The position numbers and the translations under genes are program-made. Shown here piece by piece: positions 20,968 to 34,621 of a stretch of 64,000 bases of DNA. This DNA is from Spongospora subterranea f. sp. subterranea (Eukaryota): contig JAUGWO010000070.1 in the NCBI GenBank assembly GCA_049724395.1, positions 62,001 through 126,000 on the forward strand. The letters are read 5' to 3'. The first letter of the stretch is position 1; each line of letters opens with the position of its first letter. The notes beneath the pieces were generated by a model. The model did not search any database. It saw only the letters and a list, made by a program, of their open reading frames with translations, and was not told the origin of the DNA.

Positions 20968-23606
20968 TCAAGTTGTATACCACAACCAGTCCCTATGATA
21001 GACAGCAGGTGGTGTGTCCCACCCCACCAAAGCCCTCAAATCGCCCTCTCGCGTAATTGTGCTAACGAAGGTCAAGGCGCAATTCGGGGGTCGGATCGCT
21101 GGGTCGTGATCAATGAAAGATGTCGCATTGTCGAAACCAGGACAGTTTATGATGGGGGAGGAATGCTGTCTCGGGATTCCTCCCTCTTTGGCTCGGGTCT
21201 GGAAATCAACGAGTGAATCTGGTTGAGTCAATGAGCAACCGTTCTGTCCACACGTTGGCGAACGAACCTTGGCGATATCAGAGGTCAACTTTGCCAATGC
21301 TGCTTGCACGTCAAACGGTTCTTGAGAACGCCCTGATTCATCGGAAACGCTTCCGCTTCTAGGACAGTTATACTTTGCACTGCAGTGGGTCAGTGACAAA
21401 CGGATCCCAGATGCAAGACATTCGACGTACACGTCCTGAAGATGGCGTAGTTTCACTTTCGCTCGGTTGGTTAATAGCTCCAAGCATTCTTCATCGTCAT
21501 TGACGGCTTCCTGAAGGGCCTTATAGGACACATACAATAACTGGCATTGCGTCTTGCTCCTGTCGAGAACGCGTTGTTGTTCAATATTCGCTAATAACAC
21601 ATTCACCAAACCCGATATACTTATAACTGCAAGGCCACGTCATTGTTTTGCTAAGGAACAGGCTGATTTCACCGAAAGAATAGCCTGGAAAACAGCCAGA
21701 TTGAGCTGAGTAACTGTTGTCAATATTGACCCGCCACCTTGCCTTGTGAAAAGAAACCTACACCCTCACCCGACTTGGCGATTTGTTGGACCGTTCCTTT
21801 AGCGACGACGTATAGCCCTAACAGATAGGGTCAATCGCAGTTCAATGAGACGGTACATCCTGAACACCTTTGCAGACCTCCCCTTCTTTGGCGATCATCT
21901 GGTTGCGAACAACGTAGAACGGGCTAATGTTTGCGACCAACTTATAATGAACATCACTGTGGGAACTTTCCAGATTCGCGAACGTTCGAGACATTCTGAG
22001 GTTCGCCTGAAATCGCTCCCACATTAGCAGGTACCGAACATCCACAGGCAGCTCATTTCTGATGGTTTCCCAATCCTCCAGAAGCGGCGCTCTACGCCAC
22101 TGGCTGATAGATTCGGGATATAAAACAAAACCGTTCGCATGAAATAGGTCCAGAGATCACCTGGACATCTGTTGAAGAACACGTTGTTGTAGGCCCTTAC
22201 TGATACCCATCGTCCGACAGAAAGACAGTAAGGCCGCCATCCGGCTTCGGAACCGGCGACCATCTTTGTCGTAATCATAAAGCAGGGAGGTCACGTTGGC
22301 CTTTGGTGGAAAAACAGACATGATCATTGAACAGCATTTGCACGCAAGGAAACACCATTTACCATCGTATCTGAGTTAAACACATAAACAACAAGGGCCA
22401 TGGCAAGTTGTGAAGAAATTGGGCAATCTTACACGAAAACATGATGACCCCGATCAGAAACAACATCATGGCGAACACTATTTCTGGACGCGTTCTTGGC
22501 GTTATATCCCCTTGGGCACCATTAAAGAGGGGGTCATCGCAATACGTGAACGAATGTACAGACCGTACCCAACGGTCGTCAGCGTTGTGAACGCAAAGTA
22601 GAGGCAGACGACATATCGCTCGAGCAAGTTCTGATCGGACACAAGATTATCTTGAGACCAGACACGAGATATCCAGCTATTTGGGTTGCGAATATACGCC
22701 CGGCCAATAAAATACCATAAACATGCCGACAGATGGCCAACCAGGAAAACGGTAAAACAGAGCTTGATTAGCCGCATTATTCCAGGATGAATTTGCGTGT
22801 TGAATTCGGCTTTCATAATCTTTCCCGATAGCCTGAAAGCTTTGAAAGCCTGAGGTTGATTGTGTTAGGCGGGTTGTGTACAACAAACAGCTATTGAAGG
22901 GGTATCAATACTTTGAAGAGACGAGTTAACCTCAGAAAGTTTACTGGCAGGAATATACCTAAAGGGACAACGATAAGGTTCCGGGGCCGGGATTTGGACC
23001 TCGACGGCGCAAACCGTCTGTTTGGTTAACATGCAGCTCAATCGCCAAAGATATATACGAATACGGAATTCCCGATATAACGTCAACCGCGAACCATCCC
23101 TGAAGATAGTAGAGCAGCGACCTTGATCGTGGCAGAATGATTTCTCCAAGGGAACTGGTGTGAATGGCCAGACACTGCACAGCAATGTCGACCAGGAATA
23201 TCGTGTCGGCCACGATATTGTCGATCGGAACAGGGTACATGGGAAGGAATGCTTGTGAATACATCAGTGAATAGCAGCAGGGCATTTCCAGTGATCATTG
23301 CCTCACCGAATTGAAATGGGATTACTGTAATTGAATACAGGACGCTGATCATCATAACCACATCCCATACCTGTTTCGCAGCACATTGAGTGTTCCGCAA
23401 AATGCTTCTCCCAATTGTTTGTTTCCCACATGCCGGGCCGACGAATCGGGCAATAAAAATCGAGTCGCCGCAACGTCAGATTCGACTTTAGCTGCGTTAT
23501 CATCGCAATTACTGAGTCGTCGGTCAGCATTGATTGGTTTCTCCGCCGGATCCGCAAGGTCAACGCGATGCTCTCCAACATCGACAGCATCCGATTTCGA
23601 TGGCAT
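20968..23606 (-). CDS. Voltage-gated/cyclic-nucleotide-binding-domain K+ channel (KCNH/HCN/Shaker-CNBD-like)
   Basis: Transmembrane segments (VWDVVMMISVLYS; YYLQGWFAVDVISGIPY; FLVGHLSACLWYFIG), the pore YFAFTTLTTVGYG|DITP split by an intron, and a CNBD-like region (TFANLESS...LVANISPFYVVRNQMIAKEGEV). Confidence 0.88.
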
Positions 23607-23830
23607 ATCAGAACCGAATGGCGCCGCCCTTAGGTCAAGTGAAACAATTATATGACGTAGCCCAATAATACACCAATAACGTTAAATCGTGGACGCGCCA
23701 TCAAGACAGTGGAGTAGCGCCATACTGCAGGGCCCACCGACGTTTTAGATTGCAACTTAAGGTCGCTCAAACGACCGACGGCTGGTCGTATTTCAGAGAA
23801 TGAAGTGTGGCCATGCGATGGTTATAACAG

Positions 23831-24441
23831 TTATTTATTGTCTGGTCTGCCTCTGCCACCTCGCGGGCCTCCACGACCGCCCCGGCCTCGGCCACGACCT
23901 CCTCGCCCACCACGGTCGGAACTGCCTCCTCCTCGCCCTCCTCGCATCGCTCGTAAATCACTAGATCGGCGTTATGGTTCGGGTTGAGATAGGAAAACGG
24001 GCATTCGAGAAAGCCATACCGCTCGGTTTCGACAACCTTATCAATAGTCGTTTCGGGGATACGAAGGTATTTGATGTTATTTCCTCGAATATAAACAGCA
24101 GACATTCGCCAAAATCTGTCACAATCCTTGGATAAAGTCAGTACACGGTAGACGGTCCATAGGATATAAAAATACTAACCCGGCTAGTGCGAACAATATC
24201 TTTTAGGTTTAGATTCATCCAGCTATCGATATTGACGAGCCGACCATTATAAGTTTCACCATTCTTTAATTCTACGAGCTAAGAAAAATGAAACCATCAA
24301 TAACAATAATTTCGCATCGGTATAGATACAGATTAGGTCGCACCATTGGACTGCCTTGGGCGGCACGAAGTAAGGAAAGAGGAAGCTAAGGAACCGTGTT
24401 AGCACGTGATATTACCAGCGAAAATACCAGGGGCGCACCAT
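23831..24441 (-). CDS. LSM4: U6 snRNA-associated Sm-like protein LSm4
   Basis: [40 protein letters not shown]...|[21 protein letters not shown], followed by an RGG-rich tail ending at the stop 23831-23833. Confidence 0.95.
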
Positions 24442-25299
24442 AACGCCGTTCGAGAAACCGACGTCGTTCAGCAGGAAACCAACGTTGGTGGACCTGGTTC
24501 AGTTGGCCAATGGCCAATACTCGAAAAGTGGAATCGGGATGAACGTTGATATGAGGCCAACAGACGGCTCGGCCTCCTTCAGTGCCGCACACCCCCAAAC
24601 TGGTGTCTGAACTGTGTTCACCTATGTGAACACATCCAGACTGTGCCATCGATAATGTCCTGATCGCGAGCACTGTGTCAAAAGGGTTAAGCGATCCGTC
24701 CAGGCAATGTGTGTCGGTTAGGCGATCATGCCATATCCTCGAACCGAAACACAAGTTGCTTCACAACAACGTGAACTGCAGTGGCGAATCGACCATTCGA
24801 GTGTCGGATTGAACTCGAGGATATCTACATTTTCAGCAGTGAAATGCGAGGAAATAGTTGGGGCCAATGACTACGCAGATGGAGACATAATAACCAAATT
24901 CTATCGCTATTTGGGGGGTCTGTTCTTGATCAAACTAGAAACTCGATTATCTTTGCAATCGGTAGTTTATTTTGATGTCGAATGCCGTATCCAGAGTACG
25001 CGCTGTGGCTCCAGAGAAGTTACTCACGATCAATCAAGTGTCCCAACAAAAAGCGCATACCTAGAACCAACTAATCGGTTCCGTATCGATTACAGAGAAG
25101 GAATCTGTGCATAGACACCGGTGTCTGCTGATTCAGGCATGCGCTTTTGAGAGCCAATTTCGCACTCGTTCCAAATTCCAATTGCATTCGCCATGTTAAG
25201 CAATCTTTCAAGATTCTTCAAAAACACATTGTCTGTTTTCGGATCACACCTTTGCCGCAAGAAGTGTTTTCGCGACACCATTGATAAGACGACGGTTTC

Positions 25300-25767
25300 T
25301 CACCCGAGTGTTGAACCACCGTGCTAGACACCTCAACAACGTTCGCCTCTTCCTCATATCAGAACTCAGCGCGACGTATAGATTGCGTTGTGCAGCTTTG
25401 ATGTCGCTGGCAGTGAAAACCGGTAGGTCACCGGATCGATCATTTCTGTGATGGAATGAGGGCGCAATATTCGATTGCTCAATTCAGCACTGGGGCGGTT
25501 AGTAGCGCTACCGGTCGAGTTTAGCCAAACATTATCCCCTAAAGCGTAGGAGGGCTGGGGCAGTCGCTTTTTATCGGGAAAATACTTCAGGCGAACATCG
25601 TTGAGGTGCTTAGCATGATCGTCGGCTCGGAGGTGAGTCACAATGGAACAGGTATAATCTCGTTGACAGCATACACTGCATAGAATGGCGTCATCTCGTG
25701 GCGGAGTGTTCGCCATTGTTGTAAGCGAATTCGGCCATGGGTAAAGAATAAACATCCATATTGACAA
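25300..25767 (-). mobile_element. Degenerate Ty3/gypsy (Tf2-like) retrotransposon remnant, integrase C-terminal SH3-like region
   Basis: YALGDNVWLNST...RPSAELSNRILRPHSITEMIDPVTYRFSLPATSKLHNAIYTS matches the decayed G-D-x-V-W-L...K-L...GPF-x-I...Y-x-L-x-LP...H-x-VFHVS pattern. Confidence 0.75.
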
Positions 25768-25945
25768 AGGGGAGCAATCTTATCAAACTTTGGGGACACA
25801 GAAAGCAATTTCCTGGGCGTTCATATATCCAGTCATATCTTGGATATCGATTAGGAACGTTGCATGTATTTTGTGTAGAAAACTGTTGGCCAATTGCTGC
25901 TTCATGTTTTGGGCGGTGTGCCAGTGCTGCTGATCAGCCCTGGCA
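25765..25945 (+). pseudogene. Truncated paralogous fragment of the adjacent AlkZ-like gene
   Basis: Direct similarity to ~26477-26625: cttatcaaactttggggaca, gattaggaacgttgcatgtattttgt and ttggccaattg.tgcttcat. It reads KGSNLIKLWGHR / GTLHVFC..WPIAAS with the intervening intron-like segment retained. Confidence 0.75.
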
Positions 25946-26210
25946 TTCCCTTTCTCTTTGTGCTTGTCCACCGCCCTGGCTACGGAAGGTCCTAGGCCAT
26001 CACACACCGTGAAGGGGAGTCGGTTACTGCCTTGGACACGACGCTGGCACCAGTTACACGTTGCCATTCCCCATCGGATAAGGCACGTGCGAGGAGGTGG
26101 TGACTTGGCCTCCTGCAGTCGCCAAAGCTGTATGAACATATTCAGTTACTAATAATCATTGTCAATGATGATCGGTTCAGTTATTGTTATTGTCAGAGGC
26201 GAATTAGGAT

Positions 26211-27467
26211 ATGGATAAGGTCCGTCAATGGCGAATGAGTGTTAATGGACTCTATGGAACCGGGTTTCAGTCACCGGAGAGTGTGGCGGATGCCCTGTTT
26301 GGGGTCCAAGCTCAGGAGCACGTATTCATAAGAGAAAATCCATGCATGAACTGTATAATTATATGTTTATGCACAGGTTGCTTCAGTCATATCGATATGG
26401 AACCGTCTTCAGGATGGATCGCACCTATGTGGCAAGAAGAATCAGCGCAACACCATCGATAAAGCAACCATACTGGCAAAGGGAGACAACCTTATCAAAC
26501 TTTGGGGACAAAGAGGTCATTATACCGAACATATCTCCAGTAATAACTTACATATTGATTAGGAACGTTGCATGTATTTTGTATAAAGGATTGGCCAATT
26601 GTTGCTTCATCATTTGGTCAAGCTTTGCTCGATCAGCGGAATAATCGTGTTGCCGATCCCCTCCAAATCAGGCGCCATGTTGGATCGTATTGTGAAGGAG
26701 TTTGAATCCAACAGCCATCAAACGAACAGAGATCGGTTTGATCCGATGATATCTCGTGGAATTCGAATGATGCTAACCTTAGAAGGGCATGGTGCATGGA
26801 GATACCATAGTCTCCCCAACAGTAAGATGGTGTCAACGGCCGCAACACAAAATTCAATGGCTTTCGCTCAATAGAAATTTGTAACCTGACGCCTCGATCT
26901 TCGTTATATCCCTCAACTTGGAATCTGCCACCCAGACTAGATGCACTTCGTGTCGCCGCTCTTCGATATTTTGCGAGCTACGGTCCAGCGTTAGAGATTG
27001 ACTTCCGGTTTATGATGGGTATCACTGCATTGCCGTCAAAGACCGTTATTGCGTCTTTGATTGAGGCTGGTGAGCTTGTTCAAATCACGATTGACGCGCG
27101 ACCATATCTTTTGCCATCCGTTCTGAAGAGGCAATTTGAATCGTTCATTGTTACATCCTCACCTGTTCGATTATTGTACAAATTTGATCCGATATTGTTA
27201 GCACATTCTGATAAATCATGGCTCATTGAACCGGAATACAAGGCAAGGGTTTGGGGAAAATGTGCTGTTGTTCATGCAACAGTGTTGATAAAGGGAAAGA
27301 TATCCGGAATTTGGAAGTTATCATGGCCAAGAAAATTGCAAGCAAAAGTGGACATCACGCTTTTCCACGATATCAAGGCATCTGATCGCAAAGCAATCGA
27401 CATGCAGATTGCCGGTATTGCTCGTTGTCTTCAGGCAGAAGAATACTGTATCGATTATCATGTATAG
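26211..27467 (+). CDS. alkZ: AlkZ/YcaQ-family (HTH_42 winged-helix) DNA interstrand-crosslink glycosylase homolog, 4 exons, ~366 aa after correcting one indel
   Basis: Predicted exons are 26211-26321, 26377-26515, 26563-26821 and 26875-27467 (GT-AG introns of 55, 47 and 53 nt). Motifs: GVQAQEH, SIWNRL, LIKLWGQRGTLHV, ALRYFASYGPALEIDFRFMMG, VRLLYKFDPILLAH, ATVLIKGKISGIWK. One extra C in CCCC 26658-26661 shifts exon 3. Confidence 0.85.
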
Positions 27468-27645
27468 AGAATGTCACAGCCTCTCTTGGCAATTCGGCAA
27501 TCAATCCGTCTCTAAATTTCAGCAATATTTTACTAAGTCGGCAATATCTACCCATCAGTTGTCATTGACCGGACAGCATATTGAGGCTCTGTCGCTGGAC
27601 CAGATTCACAATAATAACCAGATGATACGCGGGAGTTAGACTTGA

Positions 27646-29520
27646 TCACCACTTCCAGGGAGTAATCAAGCTTGACGTGCGCTGATGCCCAATGCGCTTC
27701 TTGGCAGGATCGCTCGAACTTTGATAGTTTACAGTTGATTTCTGGGCTATATCCCATGCTGTTCGTAATACTTGATCGTCCATATTAGTCATGCTTAGCT
27801 GCTTTGCAAGACTCTTTTTTTGCCTTGTTGTGGCTATTGCTGGATTATATTCAGATACGGCAAACTGAATGGCCTTTTCTAATTTTATGTTCAAGGCGGC
27901 ATCATGCGCCCCAGATTTGTTCGACAATCGTCTTTTCATATCCGACAGCTGCTTGGAAAGGTGTACAACCCTGTCGTTGAGTTCAGCCTTGGTCCGTCTG
28001 GCGTCTTCCAACGCTTCTGCCAGCTTTCGATTTTCCTCAACAAGTGCTCCTGGTAATACAGCGATTGCGGCCGAATGTTTTCCGCCGATTGCAGCTGGTT
28101 CAATCGGGTTGACAACATCTTCAGCACGTTGCACTGTTGAATGCTGATGCAGGTCAGGATCGTCTGTACCGATTGTATCATCGCAGTACCTTCCTGTGTC
28201 TTGATTATCGTCATTTATTGGGTGCTTCTGGCACTGATGTTCTTGCAACGCCCGAATCTCAATCTGCTTGGCGTCGAGCTCTCCGTTTATTGCTGCAACT
28301 TTATTTTTGAGTTCCTTGTTGAGCTCCTGTTCATTCGTCAACGAGTTCTGTAAGATTGGCACCTCATTTGCAGCGTTTCTCAGTTTGACGTTTTCCTCCT
28401 GCACAGTTTTCGTTCCGTTGTCTTTTTCCTTTGACAGTATCTGAAACATGTGAACCTGGTCATCTAAGTCGTCTTTCAGCCGATCCAGTTCATCCTGCTT
28501 TTGGGCTCCACTCTTTAGACATGAACTGATTGTCGATTCCATTGATTCTAACCGCTGTTGATCTTGAACTTTCGATGCCAGAGCATGATTCAGCTTCTCT
28601 TGTAATAGGGCGTTCTCAAGTGACAAATTGGCAAGCTCTTTTTCGTGCGAAATTTCAAGATTATGAAGTTTCTGTCGTTGTGCTTCAAACTCGTCAATTT
28701 CCTTGGTTAACCGCAACTTCGCAGCGACCTCAGTCAGCAACCGGCCCTTAACATCTTCCAGCTCCGACAGAACTTTCGCCTGGTTGCTGTGAGCCGTCTG
28801 GCTTTCCTGGATACTCCTCGATTCGGCAGTGAACGCAGCATGAATCTGCTCCTGTTTCGCCGACTGCAACTCCAATGACACACTGTATAGTTTGGCACTT
28901 AGCCTTTCGATGTTATCGCTCATCTCAAGGCAGCTCGCCTGGTCTAGAGCCGATCGGTCCTTCAACTCGGCTAGTTCTGATTCCATCGCGAGCCGTTTCG
29001 ATTGCCACTCTTCCAGATCAGCGTTGTGCCTACTTTTGGCAACATTGCAAGACTCTTCCAGGATCCGGACTGAATTCACCTGATCCTGATAATCCGAGGA
29101 GAGCGACGCCAAATTCTTCTCGATCCGCTCACGCTCCAGGACGCCTTGTGTGACTTCAGCCTGAGACAGATTCAGGCATCGCTGCAACGATGCACACTGT
29201 TCTCGTAGGATCGTCATGTCGTTATGAACATCTTTCACCATTTCCGACATTTGTTTTTGAAGGAGCTGTATCTCCTGAGAATGACCACTTATCAAGTCAG
29301 ACATCTTCTCCCGCAACGACGCTATCGTCTCGGTGTCATTGCTGGATGATATCGGGGTAAACGTGCCCAGGCGAGAGTATAAACCTGAAAGGTAGGTTGT
29401 TCCATCATTTCCAGTAGAATTCTTCGCCTTTAATACACCTGACTGGTTTTTGGCGTTTACTACAACCCCTGCTGGTTCGGCATCATCGGTACTCATTGAC
29501 AAAAAAGTGACGCGCGTCAC
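27646..29520 (-). CDS. Long coiled-coil protein (624-aa exon; probably continues upstream through exons to ~31 kb)
   Basis: Uninterrupted 624-aa ORF rich in E/Q/K/L heptads. Coding-like segments with splice signals lie at 29.5-31 kb. Confidence 0.7.
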   Translation of the reverse strand: MTRVTFLSMSTDDAEPAGVVVNAKNQSGVLKAKNSTGNDGTTYLSGLYSRLGTFTPISSSNDTETIASLREKMSDLISGHSQEIQLLQKQMSEMVKDVHNDMTILREQCASLQRCLNLSQAEVTQGVLERERIEKNLASLSSDYQDQVNSVRILEESCNVAKSRHNADLEEWQSKRLAMESELAELKDRSALDQASCLEMSDNIERLSAKLYSVSLELQSAKQEQIHAAFTAESRSIQESQTAHSNQAKVLSELEDVKGRLLTEVAAKLRLTKEIDEFEAQRQKLHNLEISHEKELANLSLENALLQEKLNHALASKVQDQQRLESMESTISSCLKSGAQKQDELDRLKDDLDDQVHMFQILSKEKDNGTKTVQEENVKLRNAANEVPILQNSLTNEQELNKELKNKVAAINGELDAKQIEIRALQEHQCQKHPINDDNQDTGRYCDDTIGTDDPDLHQHSTVQRAEDVVNPIEPAAIGGKHSAAIAVLPGALVEENRKLAEALEDARRTKAELNDRVVHLSKQLSDMKRRLSNKSGAHDAALNIKLEKAIQFAVSEYNPAIATTRQKKSLAKQLSMTNMDDQVLRTAWDIAQKSTVNYQSSSDPAKKRIGHQRTSSLITPWKW

Positions 29521-32145
29521 TTGAATGATATAATATCTCTAGTTGTTTATATTGCTTTTCGAAGTAGTGATTTGACGTGTGATCAGTCCCACGTGAAATA
29601 TTCAGAAACTGAGACGGTGCGGAATTGTTGATGAAGTAATACCATACGCCTCGATACTTGCCTACGCCATCGGTTAGCGTCAATCAACAGTTTCCATCCG
29701 CTTGACTTTACCTCCCATAAAGAATATGTCATTGTAATGATTGACTGATTAGGGTTAAGTAGGCCTTGCTTAAGCTCATCATCGTTGGGGGGAGTTTGAA
29801 AACTAACGTACAGCTCTCCCTCCAAGGTTTTGAACTCGGCGCGACCATTTCCAACCTAAATGGGAATAATTTAACTGAAGGATTACAATTGCAAACAAAC
29901 TACCGAACCAGAAAGCTAAGGTCGAACAGATTTTCAATTGTCTGTACAAAAGAGTCCGGATTGATGATGAGGTTAAACACAGTGGAAACCCACGATGATC
30001 AGGAGCCATCTTCTCCAAAATCTTAAGAAGCAACGTGACGCGACTCTCGGTCTGGGTCTTCAGCAGCGTTTCATTTGATTCGATTTTTTCGACTTGCTCA
30101 GTCTGATAAGCAAATATCAGTTTACAACGCGAATGAGTCCTTATGCTAATCTGAATACCGGAACGTTGATATCACGTTTCCGGGAGACGCTGGCTTTTTT
30201 CTTGGCCCCCGATAATTCGATATCTAAAATATTGGAAAGGAAATCTGCAGTAGACGTGGCTGCAATTTTGTTTTGGGCATGAGTACCCAATGCTTTCCAG
30301 TCTAATTCAAAAGGTAGATTCGCTTCTGGAATCGAATTAGCGCAGTAGTAATATCAAAACACAAAATCACCTTCATCGGACTGGCGGGCAAGAGTGAAGT
30401 GCTCCTTGAGTTTATCACTATATCCCTAAATGAGCCAATCTTTCATCCATTACATTTTCAATCAGCTTAAAATCTTCTCACATCGACAGATACGACATTG
30501 AACTTTTGATGTAAATTCTTGGTTGTTTCAGAAACAAATTCAGCTAACAATGAAAGTTGCTGAACGTCAAGATTAGCTTCAGATGTGTACAAAACTAATA
30601 CCCAATAAAGAGAAGAGTCAGTATATCATCGACCATTATATAATGCCAACAATACTCGATTCATGGATCTTATCATGTTCTGCATGAATTTTTCGTAAAG
30701 TGTCACCATCACCACCTGTGATTGCGCTGCGAGATTTTCGAGTCTTGTCAATGAGCTCTGCATAGATGCGTTCAAGTTTGGTATTCACGACGTCAATAAA
30801 TAGTGTTCGTACTTCTAAGAGACTGCCTGATAGCTATGCGTTCTTGATCGCTGGAAGCACAGAGCAGAAGTTAAAATCCTAAAAACATTCGAAAGCGTCT
30901 ATCTACGCTTGTTGTCCGAAAAGTCCCAGTTTCTTCAGACGTTCCTTTTCTGCAAGTTTCTTGGCCGAACGTTTAAGTTTTCGCTGACGGTAACGTAAGC
31001 AGGTTGAATCCCAGGCGGCGTTGAGGAAAAACCTTTATCTCTTGGTCAGACATCCGAACAGGGATCCGCGACAACGGCTGTTCAACTGGAGAGATGGGAA
31101 TTATTACTGGGGAATCGCCTTCGGGGGATTGCCAACAGTTAGAGCAACCCGCAGTCAGCCAGGCCAGTCAGCCACGCCACGGTCCATGGGCCACTGGGCG
31201 CGCAACAATCGCCGAAATGTAACGCGGTCCCGCCGGGGCCAGCAACAATGTTGGCACTCACAAGTGTCAATGCAGCCCCCATCGGATTGTTAACATGCAT
31301 TTCTGTGAAATTTTGAATTCTGGTTGTTCAACGCTTTGTCGCATTTCTGATATTCTCAGTCTGGCAGTGGCGAGAACGTAGAATGTTGAGTCGATAATTG
31401 TTTGTCTTCTTGCGTGACCTCAGCAGTTGTGACAAGAGGATCGAAATCCAATCCATTCCCGTAACAAATCTGAGGGAAATTATGGACAACGTCCATGATC
31501 AACCTTTTCATTTTCGCTATCGCAACAATATCTGCAGTCTTGGCAAGCTAAGGTTTTGGTGTCATTATTTCCAGAACGTTACACTGGGCTCGGATACTGT
31601 TTGGGACACCTCAAGCCTAGATTCGTCTTCATACCGGTGTGTTCCTTTTAAGTCCAGCTTTTGTCGGAAATTGTTTCGGCTCAACTCTGTAAATCTTTGC
31701 AAATCCTACTCATATTCGTCCGTCCTCTTGTTCGCCAATCATCAAACTCCAACACTCGTCGAACTCTATTTGCTCCTTGTAGATTTGACTTTGATGGCTC
31801 GCTGTCTGACGACAGCGTGTTCACTGTTGAGCATTGTGAAACCGTGAATACTGTATTGCCGCTTTTTTTATCAATGACATCCCAGTTCTCAAACCAGATC
31901 AAGAGGGGTGGGTCAAACTTCTTGCTTCTACCATGGGTTTAACGTCACTAGCAGCTTGGTGGCCATTTGCCCCAATGATAAAATTTCTCGCATGGCCGGA
32001 TAGGGGTCAATATCATGAAGGTACGAACATAGGGCAAAAGACCAAATTACGCAAGAATATTGGCATGGCGGAAGTTTTTGCTGTATCGTCTGATTGTTGA
32101 CGAAGATATTACTTATTTGCATATTTATCTATACACCATATCGAG

Positions 32146-34621
32146 TCACCGTGTCAACTTGTTGAAACAGGCCCCGCAAACGCGAACAGGAGTAGCCAAA
32201 CCCTTCCGCAAAATAGCTGAACGGTTAGAGCTACACGTTGCACAGAATATTCCACCACAGCAACGGCAATGATGGCGCCGGCGAAATCTGGTGAACTGCA
32301 GCTTGCACGACATACATGCGGTGCAATGCTGGTCGTCGATCCAGCTTTCATTAACCAGGATACAGGAAAAGGTTGCTGCACATGCAACCTGTGATATACC
32401 CGTTTTCGGGAATAATTTAGATTGGCGAAGATCGTAAGAACAATCATTCGGCAGGGTGTCGACTCCGATCTGACCGAACGTGTTCGAACCTGTAAACCAT
32501 AAACCTCGAGGGTAGGTTAACAACGCCAGATGAAACGCGCCGCAATCTACAGCGACCATTGAGCTCCCGTTTAGCGGAAAGTTAACTCGGGTTGGTTTGA
32601 AAATATTTGAATTTCCCAAATTGTGTGGATGTCCACATTGCCCAGCACTACGTTGTTCACAGAATCATTGCGAGCACTGACAAATTTCACGCTGGACAAT
32701 ACCTGTTTGCTCCCCAGGTGTATAGTTTCATATTGATCAGATTGACGGTGATGAAGAATGGCTGCAGAATGTGCTGACCCACAGCTGATGTCGACAATAG
32801 CGATGCCGCATTGAGACGAAGACGATTCTTCGCCGCTCCCCTGCTGAACATTATTCGCACGTAACAGAGCTGCAAACGTGTCAATCTCTTTGGGTACCCA
32901 AATATCATTAGGTTGCCCATGGCCCAACTGCACATAACGCGTTGGTGAGAACAAACGGTACTTTTAGGTAAGTTTTACCTGGCCATTCACGTTCCACCCC
33001 CACGAGTAAATAGCTTGGCTTGTAGAAGCCATCATATGGCAATGCCCGCCTTAAAAAGTATAGAGCTGGTAATATGTAAGAAGGACAGATAAAAGATACA
33101 GTAATTACCGGAAATCATAAGAGCTGGATTAGATGGACCGAAATCGGGCAACGCCAAAGGCATTGTCAAGTCACGGTCGTGCCCATGTCCAGTAAATCCG
33201 AGATCCCCTTGCCCGAACGTCCAAATGGCACCAGTTGAATCAATGAAGGCGGAACTGGACGATCCGCACGCCAGATTAACAACTTCGGCGGCAGTGTCAA
33301 TTACTGTTGGAGTGTTTCTATCTGCAAGGTCACCGAGGCCCAGCTGACCCCGGTGATTGGCGCCCCAGGAAAACACCCGACATGTTGATGTTCTCTGTGC
33401 TCAAATAGAGTTCACAATAATTGCCAAACAGTTAAGCGGCGCATACAGCCAAGTTATGATACGATCCGCAGGCTATTTGAACGATTTCAATTTTTTGAGG
33501 AAGAGTGATCTAAAAAAGTGTTTTGAGTCAAAAGGTCAAGCCTATAGGCAGGGTTGACTCAAAGCACCTGCATTAGCGTGCATGTGTCTACAGGAAGTCC
33601 TGTTCCAACGCGGTTACCCGAGGTCCACACCTCGCCAGATTCCATCAGAAAAACACTATGAGCCCAGCCACATGCTAATCCTGTGACGCCTTTGCCAACA
33701 GCTCCTTTAACAATTTCCGGTTTCATTCTCGATTTCAGGTCACCTAACTCACTGATAAGTGTGGACTGAACAGGAAAGTGATTTCTTACCATGTGCAGTG
33801 GCGCCCCAATCTCCCGACCCCCAGGGAATAGACTTGACTGACATCGTCCGGATTGTTTGCATTACGAGAGGAAATGATTGATGGACTTTTGGTGCTGATA
33901 AGTTCATGAGCCCTTTGCAAAATTGACTTCGGAATTGTCTTCTGGTGCAGACCCTCTATAACGGTGCGCCACATGTTGAATTCATTCTCATCTATGGCAG
34001 CGGGAATAAACGTTTTGTTTTGTTCTCGTTTATTTACGGCGTGCTAACCTTTACAAACCAAATCCAGCGTCTCAAAAAGGCCTCTGTTCGAGGTGCTACC
34101 GCCTCGCACAGATATAGAGGTTCTGATCGGAGATGTTGATGATCTGAATGACGATCTCGATGGCGTTGGTGCTGGTGTCGATGGTACGTCTGTAAAAGCC
34201 GTGATCAGATTGAATTGGCCAGGAAGTAAGATAAGTTGTATCACAATTCACTGAGAACGAAAGATGGTCTAAATCTGGTCTTCGGTCTCGTATGTTCTTA
34301 TTCTCTTTCTGTCCGAACTGTGTGGATATAATGTCGGAAATAAGCACTGAGCACGAGTAAGATCACGAAAAGAAGCAACTTCATCAAGGTACCTTGGGAT
34401 TCATTTTTGGGAGTTATCCAATGCAAGTGCTGGAAATCATTGCTTAGGTGAAACTTGTGAAATTTAGGCTACACCAATGATTCTCAGATATTGCGGATAG
34501 AGAGCATTCACGGTCGGGTCCAGACTTTGTTCGATTTTCCATAGTGCAGCATTGGAATCGGCGTCTGGAGAGCCATTAGCGCTTGGATTAGATCATTGTC
34601 GTCAAGGAGCGGTGCCGACAT
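32146..34621 (-). CDS. PH + RCC1-repeat + FYVE protein (PRAF/RLD-like architecture, no BRX domain seen)
   Basis: N-terminus MSAPLLDDNDLIQALMALQ..MLHYGKSNK|PKFHKFHLSNDFQHLHW...FGQ..RPDLDHLSFSV...TLDLVCK..EFNMWR. RCC1 repeats (VFSWGANHRGQLGLGD, ACGWAHS, CGSAHS). FYVE: WIDDQHCTACMSC...RRRHHCRCCGGIFC..CS...RVCGAC. Confidence 0.88.

What the first reader, a model, noticed from the sequence alone, without database searches (positions are those of the whole stretch)
26211..27467. Spliced eukaryotic AlkZ-family crosslink-unhooking DNA glycosylase: candidate bacterium-to-protist transfer
Seen in sequence: joining four exons over canonical 47-55 nt GT-AG introns and removing one C from a CCCC run gives ~366 aa. 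The protein has the ordered HTH_42 motifs QAQ (codons 26307-26315, residues 33-35), W..R, WGQRGTLH, RYF.SYGP....DF, LL.KFDP.LL.H and VLI.G.I.GIW. Established knowledge: AlkZ (Streptomyces sahachiroi, azinomycin B self-resistance) and E. coli YcaQ are predominantly bacterial glycosylases that unhook N7 interstrand crosslinks. AlkZ uses a Q-x-Q catalytic motif and YcaQ-like proteins use Q-x-D, so this copy is AlkZ-type. Inference: an intron-bearing copy between normal eukaryotic genes argues against contamination. It suggests a domesticated horizontally acquired gene that gives a soil or plant-associated protist base-excision repair of crosslinks or alkylation, for example from actinomycete genotoxins.
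Basis: partly seen in the sequence, partly recalled or inferred. Interest (0 to 1): 0.9.

Follow-up and report, generated by a model that had tools for sequence, protein, structure and literature searches.

The report
Eukaryotic branch of AlkZ repair glycosylases
A potato-parasite protist carries an intron-containing gene for an AlkZ-family protein, predicted to cut alkylated bases out of DNA, and it groups in family trees with copies from a red alga and an amoeba, so this supposedly bacterial repair enzyme likely entered eukaryotes long ago rather than recently.

Summary
The gene is real: four exons, three GT-AG introns (55, 47, 53 nt), QAQ at 26307-26315. It matches a deposited 366-aa Spongospora subterranea protein (P0001), Pfam AlkZ-like (E 9e-32) and the AlkZ fold (Z 34.3, against 25.9 for YcaQ-type AlkX). 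Two corrections. (1) The one-base shift lies at 26680-26683, not in the CCCC run. No reads could be checked, so assembly error or a null allele remains open. (2) It is not a private transfer into this protist. It sits in a supported clade (99/95; 44 rows) with named Rhizamoeba and Pyropia proteins and 41 unnamed ones. That clade is nested among bacterial AlkZ-like proteins; a separate bacterial origin is rejected with fuller sampling (AU p 0.0004). Another intron-bearing copy (L137) falls outside it, which suggests repeated entry into eukaryotes. Most likely a monofunctional N7-alkylguanine glycosylase; crosslink unhooking is untested. Ten literature searches found no description of this clade, though PF06224 is tallied in macroalgal genomes.

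The parts
26211..26321 (+). Exon 1 (residues 1-37), includes the catalytic QAQ motif
   Evidence: identical to P0001
26307..26315 (+). Codons of Q33-A34-Q35 (AlkZ-type QxQ motif), followed by E36
   Evidence: aligns to the GVQAQ stretch of AlkZ 5uuj; Q33 and Q35 invariant in 68 of 68 rows of alignment A1
26322..26376 (+). Intron 1, 55 nt, GT-AG, phase 0
   Evidence: junction present in P0001
26377..26515 (+). Exon 2
26516..26562 (+). Intron 2, 47 nt, GT-AG, splits the WGQRGTLH motif
26563..26821 (+). Exon 3; holds the one-base frame discrepancy
26680..26683 (+). Place where the window's frame departs from the deposited protein P0001 (one base more than the protein needs); premature stop follows at 26703-26705
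26822..26874 (+). Intron 3, 53 nt, GT-AG
26875..27467 (+). Exon 4: third winged helix and beta-sheet subdomain, including the loop near residues 289-304 that is inferred to match the AlkZ DNA-binding hairpin; stop codon 27465-27467
   Evidence: PF06224 E 4.4e-24; 100% identical to P0001; alignment to 5uuj; model
25076..25148 (-). Inverted relic of intron 1 and the start of exon 2 (70% identical over 73 nt to 26335-26405): piece 1 of a decayed upstream duplicate
   Evidence: E 7e-6 in a two-sequence search
25241..25287 (+). Relic of exon 2 (77% identical over 47 nt to 26416-26462): piece 2
25387..25539 (-). Tf2-like retrotransposon SH3 fragment (PF24626) inside the roughly 460-nt insert that splits the relic
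   Evidence: E 1.3e-8; residues 81-131 of window:25369-25779:-
25748..25912 (+). Relic of exon 2, intron 2 and exon 3 (78% identical over 166 nt to 26459-26617); intron-2 donor lost, Q82 codon changed to His: piece 3

Best explanation
This is a spliced nuclear gene of the plasmodiophorid Spongospora subterranea for an AlkZ-like protein with the QxQ motif, likely inherited from an old entry of a bacterial gene into eukaryotes and predicted to act as a monofunctional glycosylase that removes N7-alkylguanine lesions. Mechanism, inferred from AlkZ and AlkX: the C-shaped basic protein (pI 9.6; three winged helices plus a beta-sheet subdomain) would clamp duplex DNA without flipping the base. Its loop near residues 289-304 would enter the minor groove, and Q33 and Q35 would hold the backbone and a water molecule so that the N-glycosidic bond of the cationic base is hydrolysed. 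The abasic site would pass to the host's base-excision repair. With no biosynthetic cluster nearby, its role is likely general protection against outside or metabolic alkylators, not self-resistance. It may also unhook N7 crosslinks (about even odds). The one-base shift in this assembly is most likely a sequence error (about 60%), since an intact protein of the same species is on record. Shown: gene structure, family, motif, predicted fold, tree position. Inferred: activity, substrate, location in the nucleus, age and direction of transfer.
For: Family and fold: PF06224 E 9.3e-32, full length; phmmer to 5uuj E 4.7e-8; model pLDDT 89.3; Foldseek 5uuj E 4.4e-20, TM 0.74; VIA Z 34.3, rmsd 3.3, 340 aligned, against Z 25.9 for AlkX. 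Clade: 10 of 10 candidate eukaryotic rows on one side, 98/94 under the mixture model (46 rows); 44-row clade at 97 (205 rows); 20-row clade at 99/95, P0001 paired with P0160 (39% identical) at 100/96 (42 rows). Named members: Spongospora, Rhizamoeba saxonica, Pyropia vietnamensis. None of the 28 named prokaryotic loci in the 205-row tree lies inside. P0001 held with the bacterial sister rows is rejected: p 0.028, p 0.0004. Clade marks: QxQ followed by D or E in 36 of 44 rows against 0 of 11 sister rows; basic NLS-like terminal motifs in 30 of 44 against 2 of 10 sister and 7 of 120 other full proteins. PF06224 is counted in 32 of 126 macroalgal genomes (PMC13676742 Table S2C). Chemistry: PMC7367128 section 13, PMC9040887 passages, PMC13303869 sections 8 and 10.
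Against: No activity was tested. Only 3 of the 44 clade rows are named; the other 41 are called eukaryotic by inference. With sparse sampling and LG+G4, a separate origin from the bacterial sister group was not rejected (p 0.214), nor was a pairing with the actinobacterial row P0083 (p 0.109). AU groups were named after trees had been seen. P0001 has an unusual letter make-up in every tree. P0001 itself has no NLS-like motif. The trees cannot tell one ancient gain with many losses from eukaryote-to-eukaryote spread. The sister group has one named row (an Acidobacteriota bin, L001), and another Acidobacteriota row (L018) lies elsewhere, so no donor is named. The macroalgal counts may include bacterial contamination. 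As assembled, this copy is frameshifted.
Confidence: 0.62

Rival explanations
1. One reading: a separate, fairly recent transfer from a soil bacterium into the plasmodiophorid line, kept as a defence against actinomycete genotoxins.
For: Not rejected in the first, sparse test (p 0.214 with the Acidobacteriota-type rows; p 0.109 with P0083). The best single-sequence hits were bacterial (P0003, 32%). Separate entries into eukaryotes do seem to occur (L137).
Against: Rejected under the mixture model (p 0.028) and with fuller sampling (p 0.0004 alone; p 0.026 together with P0160). The closest relative is P0160 at 39%, above any named bacterial protein. No column was shared by P0001 and the Acidobacteriota-type rows to the exclusion of the other eukaryote candidates and bacteria. 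Grouping with Chloroflexota rows is rejected (p 0.0002).
Confidence: 0.12
2. The copy in this isolate is a real null allele or young pseudogene: the extra base at 26680-26683 truncates the protein at 130 residues, as part of local decay that has already ruined the upstream duplicate.
For: The assembled sequence has the shift and a stop at 26703-26705. A rearranged, retroelement-split duplicate lies 300-1100 nt upstream. The family is patchy, and another relative is broken (L128).
Against: This is the only difference from the intact deposited protein over 366 residues. All splice sites are canonical. The fold and catalytic residues are kept.
Confidence: 0.27
3. There is no shift: a fourth intron, 26617-26671 (55 nt, GTCAAG..CAG), is spliced out and gives an open 348-aa protein.
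For: It is of typical size and gives one open frame.
Against: P0001 reads through this stretch letter for letter. Eight GT-AG pairs would open the frame, so one is expected by chance. The W94-G158 spacing would be 46, against a minimum of 64 in the 157 of 191 rows that could be measured and 58 in P0160 (counted by hand). The stretch is predicted to be helix.
Confidence: 0.08
4. The eukaryotic proteins keep the fold but have become DNA-binding or lesion-sensing proteins, or act on a different lesion, and do not excise N7-alkylguanine.
For: Only 19-20% identity to AlkZ. The second winged-helix region is the shortest among the 157 rows measured. The inferred DNA-binding loop differs from the bacterial forms. 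The same fold occurs in the Lhr C-terminal domain (Z 16.6). PMC9040887 allows for regulatory or protective roles of some AlkZ-like proteins.
Against: QxQ is kept in 36 of the 38 clade rows that span it, which points to selection on catalysis.
Confidence: 0.15

Closest known systems
AlkZ of Streptomyces sahachiroi (PDB 5UUJ) and the AlkZ-like (AZL) subfamily of HTH_42 / PF06224
   Same: Full-length PF06224 match, QxQ motif, the same three-winged-helix plus beta-sheet architecture (Z 34.3, 340 of 366 residues aligned).
   Different: Eukaryotic, three introns, no biosynthetic gene cluster among the neighbours examined. 19-20% identity. D or E after QxQ, a different loop in the DNA-binding hairpin region, a short second winged helix. 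It belongs to a branch whose named bacterial relatives are mostly Chloroflexota and Acidobacteriota bins, not Streptomyces.
YcaQ of E. coli / AlkX (YQL subfamily; PDB 9ZD6)
   Same: Same fold (Z 25.9). Like YQL it lies outside biosynthetic clusters, which suggests general protection.
   Different: QxQ, not QxD; no BLASTP similarity to YcaQ (best E 2.1); 13-14% identity in the structural alignment.
NEIL3, the known eukaryotic crosslink-unhooking glycosylase
   Same: Would be a glycosylase route to crosslink repair in a eukaryote, if the activity is confirmed.
   Different: Unrelated fold. NEIL3 needs a fork-like junction and acts on abasic-site and psoralen crosslinks, while AlkZ and AlkX act on N7-guanine links in duplex DNA (PMC13303869 section 10).
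Lhr helicase C-terminal HTH_42-like domain (PDB 7LHL)
   Same: Related fold (Z 16.6).
   Different: Here a stand-alone 366-aa protein. The search of longer proteins (344-2000 aa) with exon 4 gave 2 hits of 357 and 366 aa among 2256 candidates, which is weak evidence against fused forms.

Membership tests
HTH_42 / AlkZ-like family (PF06224) | Full-length match above the curated cut-off | tested here: met
   111.4 bits against a cut-off of 25.9; residues 28-353 against profile positions 3-328 of 329
HTH_42 / AlkZ-like family (PF06224) | Three winged helices plus beta-sheet subdomain, as in AlkZ | tested here: met
   Predicted model, pLDDT 89.3; 5uuj TM 0.74; Z 34.3, rmsd 3.3, 340 aligned
AZL (AlkZ-like) subfamily | (Q/H)-aliphatic-Q catalytic motif | tested here: met
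   Q33-A34-Q35, aligned to the AlkZ motif; definition from PMC9040887
AZL (AlkZ-like) subfamily | Falls in the Streptomyces AZL clade of PMC9040887 in a tree | tested here: inconclusive
   AlkZ itself was not available as a row. The protein groups with a QxQ branch of Chloroflexota/Acidobacteriota type, apart from the more distant QxQ rows used as outgroup
AZL (AlkZ-like) subfamily | Typical (not obligatory) location in or near a genotoxin biosynthetic cluster | tested here: not met
   20 open frames within 18-33.4 kb scanned: hits were RCC1/FYVE, ion transport, coiled-coil, Tf2 SH3 and DUF7932, plus an LSM exon; no biosynthetic family. The six shared bacterial neighbours that Pfam named, of 14 scanned, were not biosynthetic either
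AZL (AlkZ-like) subfamily | Monofunctional excision of N7-alkylguanine; for AlkZ, unhooking of N7 crosslinks | not testable with these tools
   Needs an in vitro assay
YQL (YcaQ-like / AlkX) subfamily | Q-aliphatic-D catalytic motif | tested here: not met
   Third position is Q
YQL (YcaQ-like / AlkX) subfamily | High sequence conservation with YcaQ | tested here: not met
   No significant BLASTP alignment to E. coli YcaQ
AZL2 clade | H-aliphatic-(S/T)-(D/E) motif | tested here: not met
   Motif is QAQE; definition from PMC9040887
Lineage-specific bacterium-to-plasmodiophorid transfer | Nested directly among bacteria, apart from other eukaryotic copies | tested here: not met
   Rejected at p 0.028 and p 0.0004; not rejected in the sparse test, p 0.214

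The most novel reading that the evidence does not exclude
An undescribed, mostly nucleus-targeted clade of AlkZ-type glycosylases runs across at least three eukaryotic supergroups (Rhizaria, Amoebozoa, Rhodophyta) and gives them a fork-independent way to unhook N7 interstrand crosslinks in duplex DNA. That would be a third eukaryotic route beside Fanconi/NER incision and NEIL3, and the same bacterial subfamily would have entered eukaryotes at least twice.
Probability: 0.33. Interest if true: 0.75.

Novelty: new variant of a known kind. Interest (0 to 1): 0.52.

Why it matters
The papers read here treat AlkZ/YcaQ as bacterial (with 12 archaeal members) and contrast them with eukaryotic NEIL3. 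A eukaryotic clade that keeps the catalytic motif, often with nuclear-import-like motifs, widens that picture and can be tested at once with existing 7-methylguanine and nitrogen-mustard crosslink assays. It could also help find the unknown everyday substrate of AlkZ-like enzymes that lie outside toxin clusters. The single gene is already in UniRef with its Pfam label, so the news is the clade and its history, not the gene.

Tried and rejected
Frameshift in the CCCC run: opens the frame but leaves 7 mismatches to P0001. Fourth intron 26617-26671: disfavoured. Viral vector: 22 stretches in viral contigs matched the patterns, 0 confirmed. Plasmids: 18 records, all 21-32% identical. NCBIfam: no family for 4 of 4 proteins. 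Conserved bacterial operon: no neighbour cluster in more than 10 of 80 loci; of 14 representatives scanned, 6 were named by Pfam, none a repair or biosynthetic gene. A loop signature W-x-[RKNS]-[NCG]-A-x-[IV] split 10 of 10 eukaryote candidates from 0 of 181 other rows, but it was designed after seeing them and weakened with wider sampling (A300 in 30 of 42 clade rows, 1 of 11 sister rows, 44 of 146 others), so it is not relied on. The ESM Atlas returned only mainly bacterial clusters for P0001 and P0010; it searches only clusters of 50 or more members. Supplements of three Plasmodiophora papers gave 0 hits for the family terms (two PDF files of PMC4815078 could not be read), so presence in P. 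brassicae is neither shown nor excluded, and P0160's organism is not determined. An upstream exon adding a basic N-terminus was looked for by eye in 26000-26210 and not found; an in-frame stop lies at 26205-26207. My first exon model of L138 had boundaries off by one base; the corrected model moved it out of the clade. No whole genome is held, so copy number outside the window is unknown. No read data were obtained.

Full report
1. Observation. The window shows a four-exon gene on the + strand: 26211-26321, 26377-26515, 26563-26821 and 26875-27467, with GT-AG introns of 55, 47 and 53 nt. Exon 4 alone hits Pfam AlkZ-like PF06224 at E 4.4e-24; the four shorter pieces scanned gave nothing on their own. 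The plain join is 1102 nt, one base off frame, with a stop at 26703-26705. A search with exon 4 returned P0001, 366 aa, 100% identical, named Spongospora subterranea in UniRef (A0A0H5QNI1, CRZ03137.1) and EukProt. PMC4471660 (passages) says that S. subterranea protein models were made from a de novo transcriptome without a genome, and gives about 60 bp as the mean intron length in the related P. brassicae. That CRZ03137.1 comes from that transcriptome is my recall, not a call result. If it does, the gene is expressed and spliced in at least one isolate. No reads were examined.

2. Surroundings. The flanks are eukaryotic: an LSM exon at 24180-24278, an ion-channel exon, an RCC1-FYVE gene and a coiled-coil frame (7 of 20 frames had hits other than the Tf2 one). 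GC is 0.446 over 26001-28000, within the window's range of 0.415-0.519. Just upstream lies a decayed duplicate in three pieces (25076-25148 inverted, 25241-25287, 25748-25912; 70-78% identical), split by an insert with a Tf2-like SH3 fragment. Contamination is therefore very unlikely. No biosynthetic family was seen among these frames.

3. Family. P0001 matches PF06224 over nearly the whole profile (E 9.3e-32), and AlkZ is its only hit among 177,635 PDB sequences (E 4.7e-8). The model (pLDDT 89.3, pTM 0.90, 68-row alignment) matches AlkZ at TM 0.74 and Z 34.3, AlkX at Z 25.9 and the Lhr C-terminal domain at Z 16.6. The motif is QAQ, the AZL form defined in PMC9040887 (passages) and PMC7367128 (section 13). 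There is no BLASTP similarity to E. coli YcaQ.

4. Relatives. Searches gave 83 and 57 hits, among them Rhizamoeba saxonica (P0007) and Pyropia vietnamensis (P0089), and seven unnamed proteins that I took as eukaryote candidates from their extensions and likeness to these. The GTDB scan confirmed 112 of 152 pattern matches and kept 80 loci, mostly Chloroflexota bins with some Acidobacteriota, Verrucomicrobiota and others. From 191 rows, non-candidate rows were thinned at 58% identity to give 71 (P0084-P0087 left out). The 10 candidates formed one side of a branch at 95 (FastTree), at 98/94 (46 rows, mixture model) and, in smaller sets, at 90/83 (7 rows) and 86/79 (6 rows); the core without P0005 scored 98/95 and 98/92. 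The sister is a small bacterial group whose only named row is an Acidobacteriota bin (L001 = P0003), joined at 100/100. A profile of the 10 candidates against 1.84 billion representatives found 284 proteins at E up to 1e-30; the best 150 were listed. Adding 133 of the 142 new ones (9 under 280 aa dropped) gave a 44-row clade at 97 that holds the three named eukaryotes and none of the 28 named prokaryotic loci (205 rows). A careful tree on 42 of these rows gave a 20-row clade at 99/95, with P0001 paired to P0160 at 100/96 and P0167 joining at 97/91; P0005 attached at only 89/64. Within the 44 rows, 36 show QxQ followed by D or E (8 are fragments or differ there), against 0 of 11 sister rows. 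Basic NLS-like motifs at a terminus occur in 30 of 44, against 2 of 10 sister and 7 of 120 other full proteins. P0001 has none (41.6 kDa, pI 9.6). The clade is called eukaryotic on 3 named rows and these marks; 41 rows are unnamed.

5. Tests of origin. Holding P0001 with the bacterial sister rows was not rejected in the first sparse set (p 0.214), nor was pairing with the long actinobacterial row P0083 (p 0.109); grouping with Chloroflexota rows was rejected (p 0.0002). Under the mixture model the sister-row constraint was rejected at p 0.028, placing P0001 outside both groups at p 0.043 and with the outgroup at p 0.003. With P0160 and others added it was rejected at p 0.0004 (P0001 alone) and p 0.026 (with P0160). 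The groups were named after trees were seen, and P0001 is flagged for letter make-up, so these values are somewhat optimistic. The root rests on more distant QxQ rows; AlkZ and YcaQ were not in the trees. The reading is an old entry of one bacterial AZL branch into eukaryotes, followed by descent with losses or by spread among eukaryotes; the data do not separate these. The metagenome scan (57 of 130 matches confirmed) added two intron-bearing genes, L137 and L138, outside the clade. One clade of all was rejected at p 0.006 and p 0.023, which points to at least one more entry. No viral copy was confirmed.

6. Mechanism (inferred). By homology to AlkZ and AlkX (PMC13303869 passages and sections 8 and 10), the basic C-shaped protein would clamp duplex DNA without base flipping. 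A loop in the beta-sheet subdomain would enter the minor groove (residues about 289-304 by the alignment; the AlkZ hairpin numbering is recalled). Q33 and Q35 would position backbone and water for hydrolysis of a cationic N7-alkylguanine, leaving an abasic site for base-excision repair. With no toxin cluster nearby, and no conserved neighbour in more than 10 of 80 bacterial loci, general protection is more likely than self-resistance. Nothing here points specifically to actinomycete toxins.

7. The frame shift. My odds: assembly error about 60-65%, real null allele about 27%, rescue by a fourth intron at 26617-26671 about 8%. The last is disfavoured because P0001 reads through it, eight such GT-AG pairs exist, and the W94-G158 spacing would be 46 against 64 (minimum of 157 rows) and 58 in P0160 (hand count).

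8. Literature. Ten searches: AlkZ + eukaryot (11 papers, 9 listed); AlkZ-like/YcaQ-like/AZL/YQL (6); Spongospora + horizontal gene transfer (15); HTH_42 + algae (0); PF06224 + eukaryo (5); ycaQ + horizontal gene transfer + eukaryot (3); AlkZ + algae (4); Spongospora subterranea + genome assembly + DNA repair (3); interstrand crosslink + glycosylase + red alga (2); AlkZ + protist (0). None of the listings or passages describes a eukaryotic AlkZ clade. PMC7367128 calls HTH_42 a superfamily of bacterial proteins. PMC9040887 mentions bacteria and 12 archaeal members and has no 'eukary' in its main text or six supplements. The 2026 review PMC13705206 lists only bacterial phyla (passages). Against novelty: PMC13676742 names PF06224 among temperature-linked families in macroalgae (passages) and counts it in 32 of 126 genomes (supplement row), and the Spongospora protein is already in UniRef with this Pfam label. 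PMC4815078 and PMC6823432 were seen only as listings and supplement term searches (0 hits; two files unreadable). The original AlkZ papers were not read. Subscription journals and bioRxiv supplements were not searched and may hold a mention. The scan's own notes had nothing on this family by sequence or place. The word search showed two notes on other glycosylase families; e1-7242909 describes a parallel case and was not tested.

9. Verdict. A real, native, AlkZ-type gene. It is not a private recent transfer but one member of an apparently undescribed eukaryotic branch with its catalytic motif intact. New variant of a known kind; interest 0.52, rising to about 0.75 if crosslink unhooking is shown.

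Noticed in passing
window 25076-25912: Decayed, rearranged duplicate of the same gene in three pieces (one inverted), split by an insert of about 460 nt that holds a Tf2-like SH3 retrotransposon fragment. It keeps the position of intron 2, so it arose from DNA-level duplication after the introns were gained.
   Followed up: yes
L137:1-1496: Unnamed metagenome contig with an AlkZ-like gene split by four GT-AG introns of 68-139 nt (open 365-aa join, QSQ motif). It falls outside the main eukaryotic clade (AU p 0.006 and 0.023), which suggests a second entry into eukaryotes.
   Followed up: partly
L138:606-1564: Unnamed metagenome contig with the C-terminal part of an AlkZ-like gene and four GT-AG introns of 128-144 nt; bacterial-type loop; unresolved in the tree, outside the main clade.
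   Followed up: partly
L128:1-708: Broken (stops and a frame change) copy close to P0010, 47% GC.
   Followed up: no
protein P0160 (377 aa): Closest relative of the window's protein (39% over 375 columns), with a basic MKRKRP start that P0001 lacks and the same short second winged helix; organism unknown.
   Followed up: partly
window 23770-24278 (-): LSM-domain gene with an RGG-rich tail (LSm4-like by recall); exon 24180-24278 hits PF01423.
   Followed up: no
window 27646-29538 (-): 630-aa open frame, coiled-coil-like, with only sub-threshold Pfam hits.
   Followed up: no
window 32146-33400 (-): RCC1-repeat plus FYVE zinc-finger gene.
   Followed up: no
window 22502-22864 (-): Exon of an ion-channel gene (PF00520).
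   Followed up: no
PMC13676742 Table S2C: PF06224 is present in 32 of 126 macroalgal genomes and correlates with minimum sea-surface temperature (r 0.41). The authors make no functional or evolutionary claim in the passages seen.
   Followed up: no
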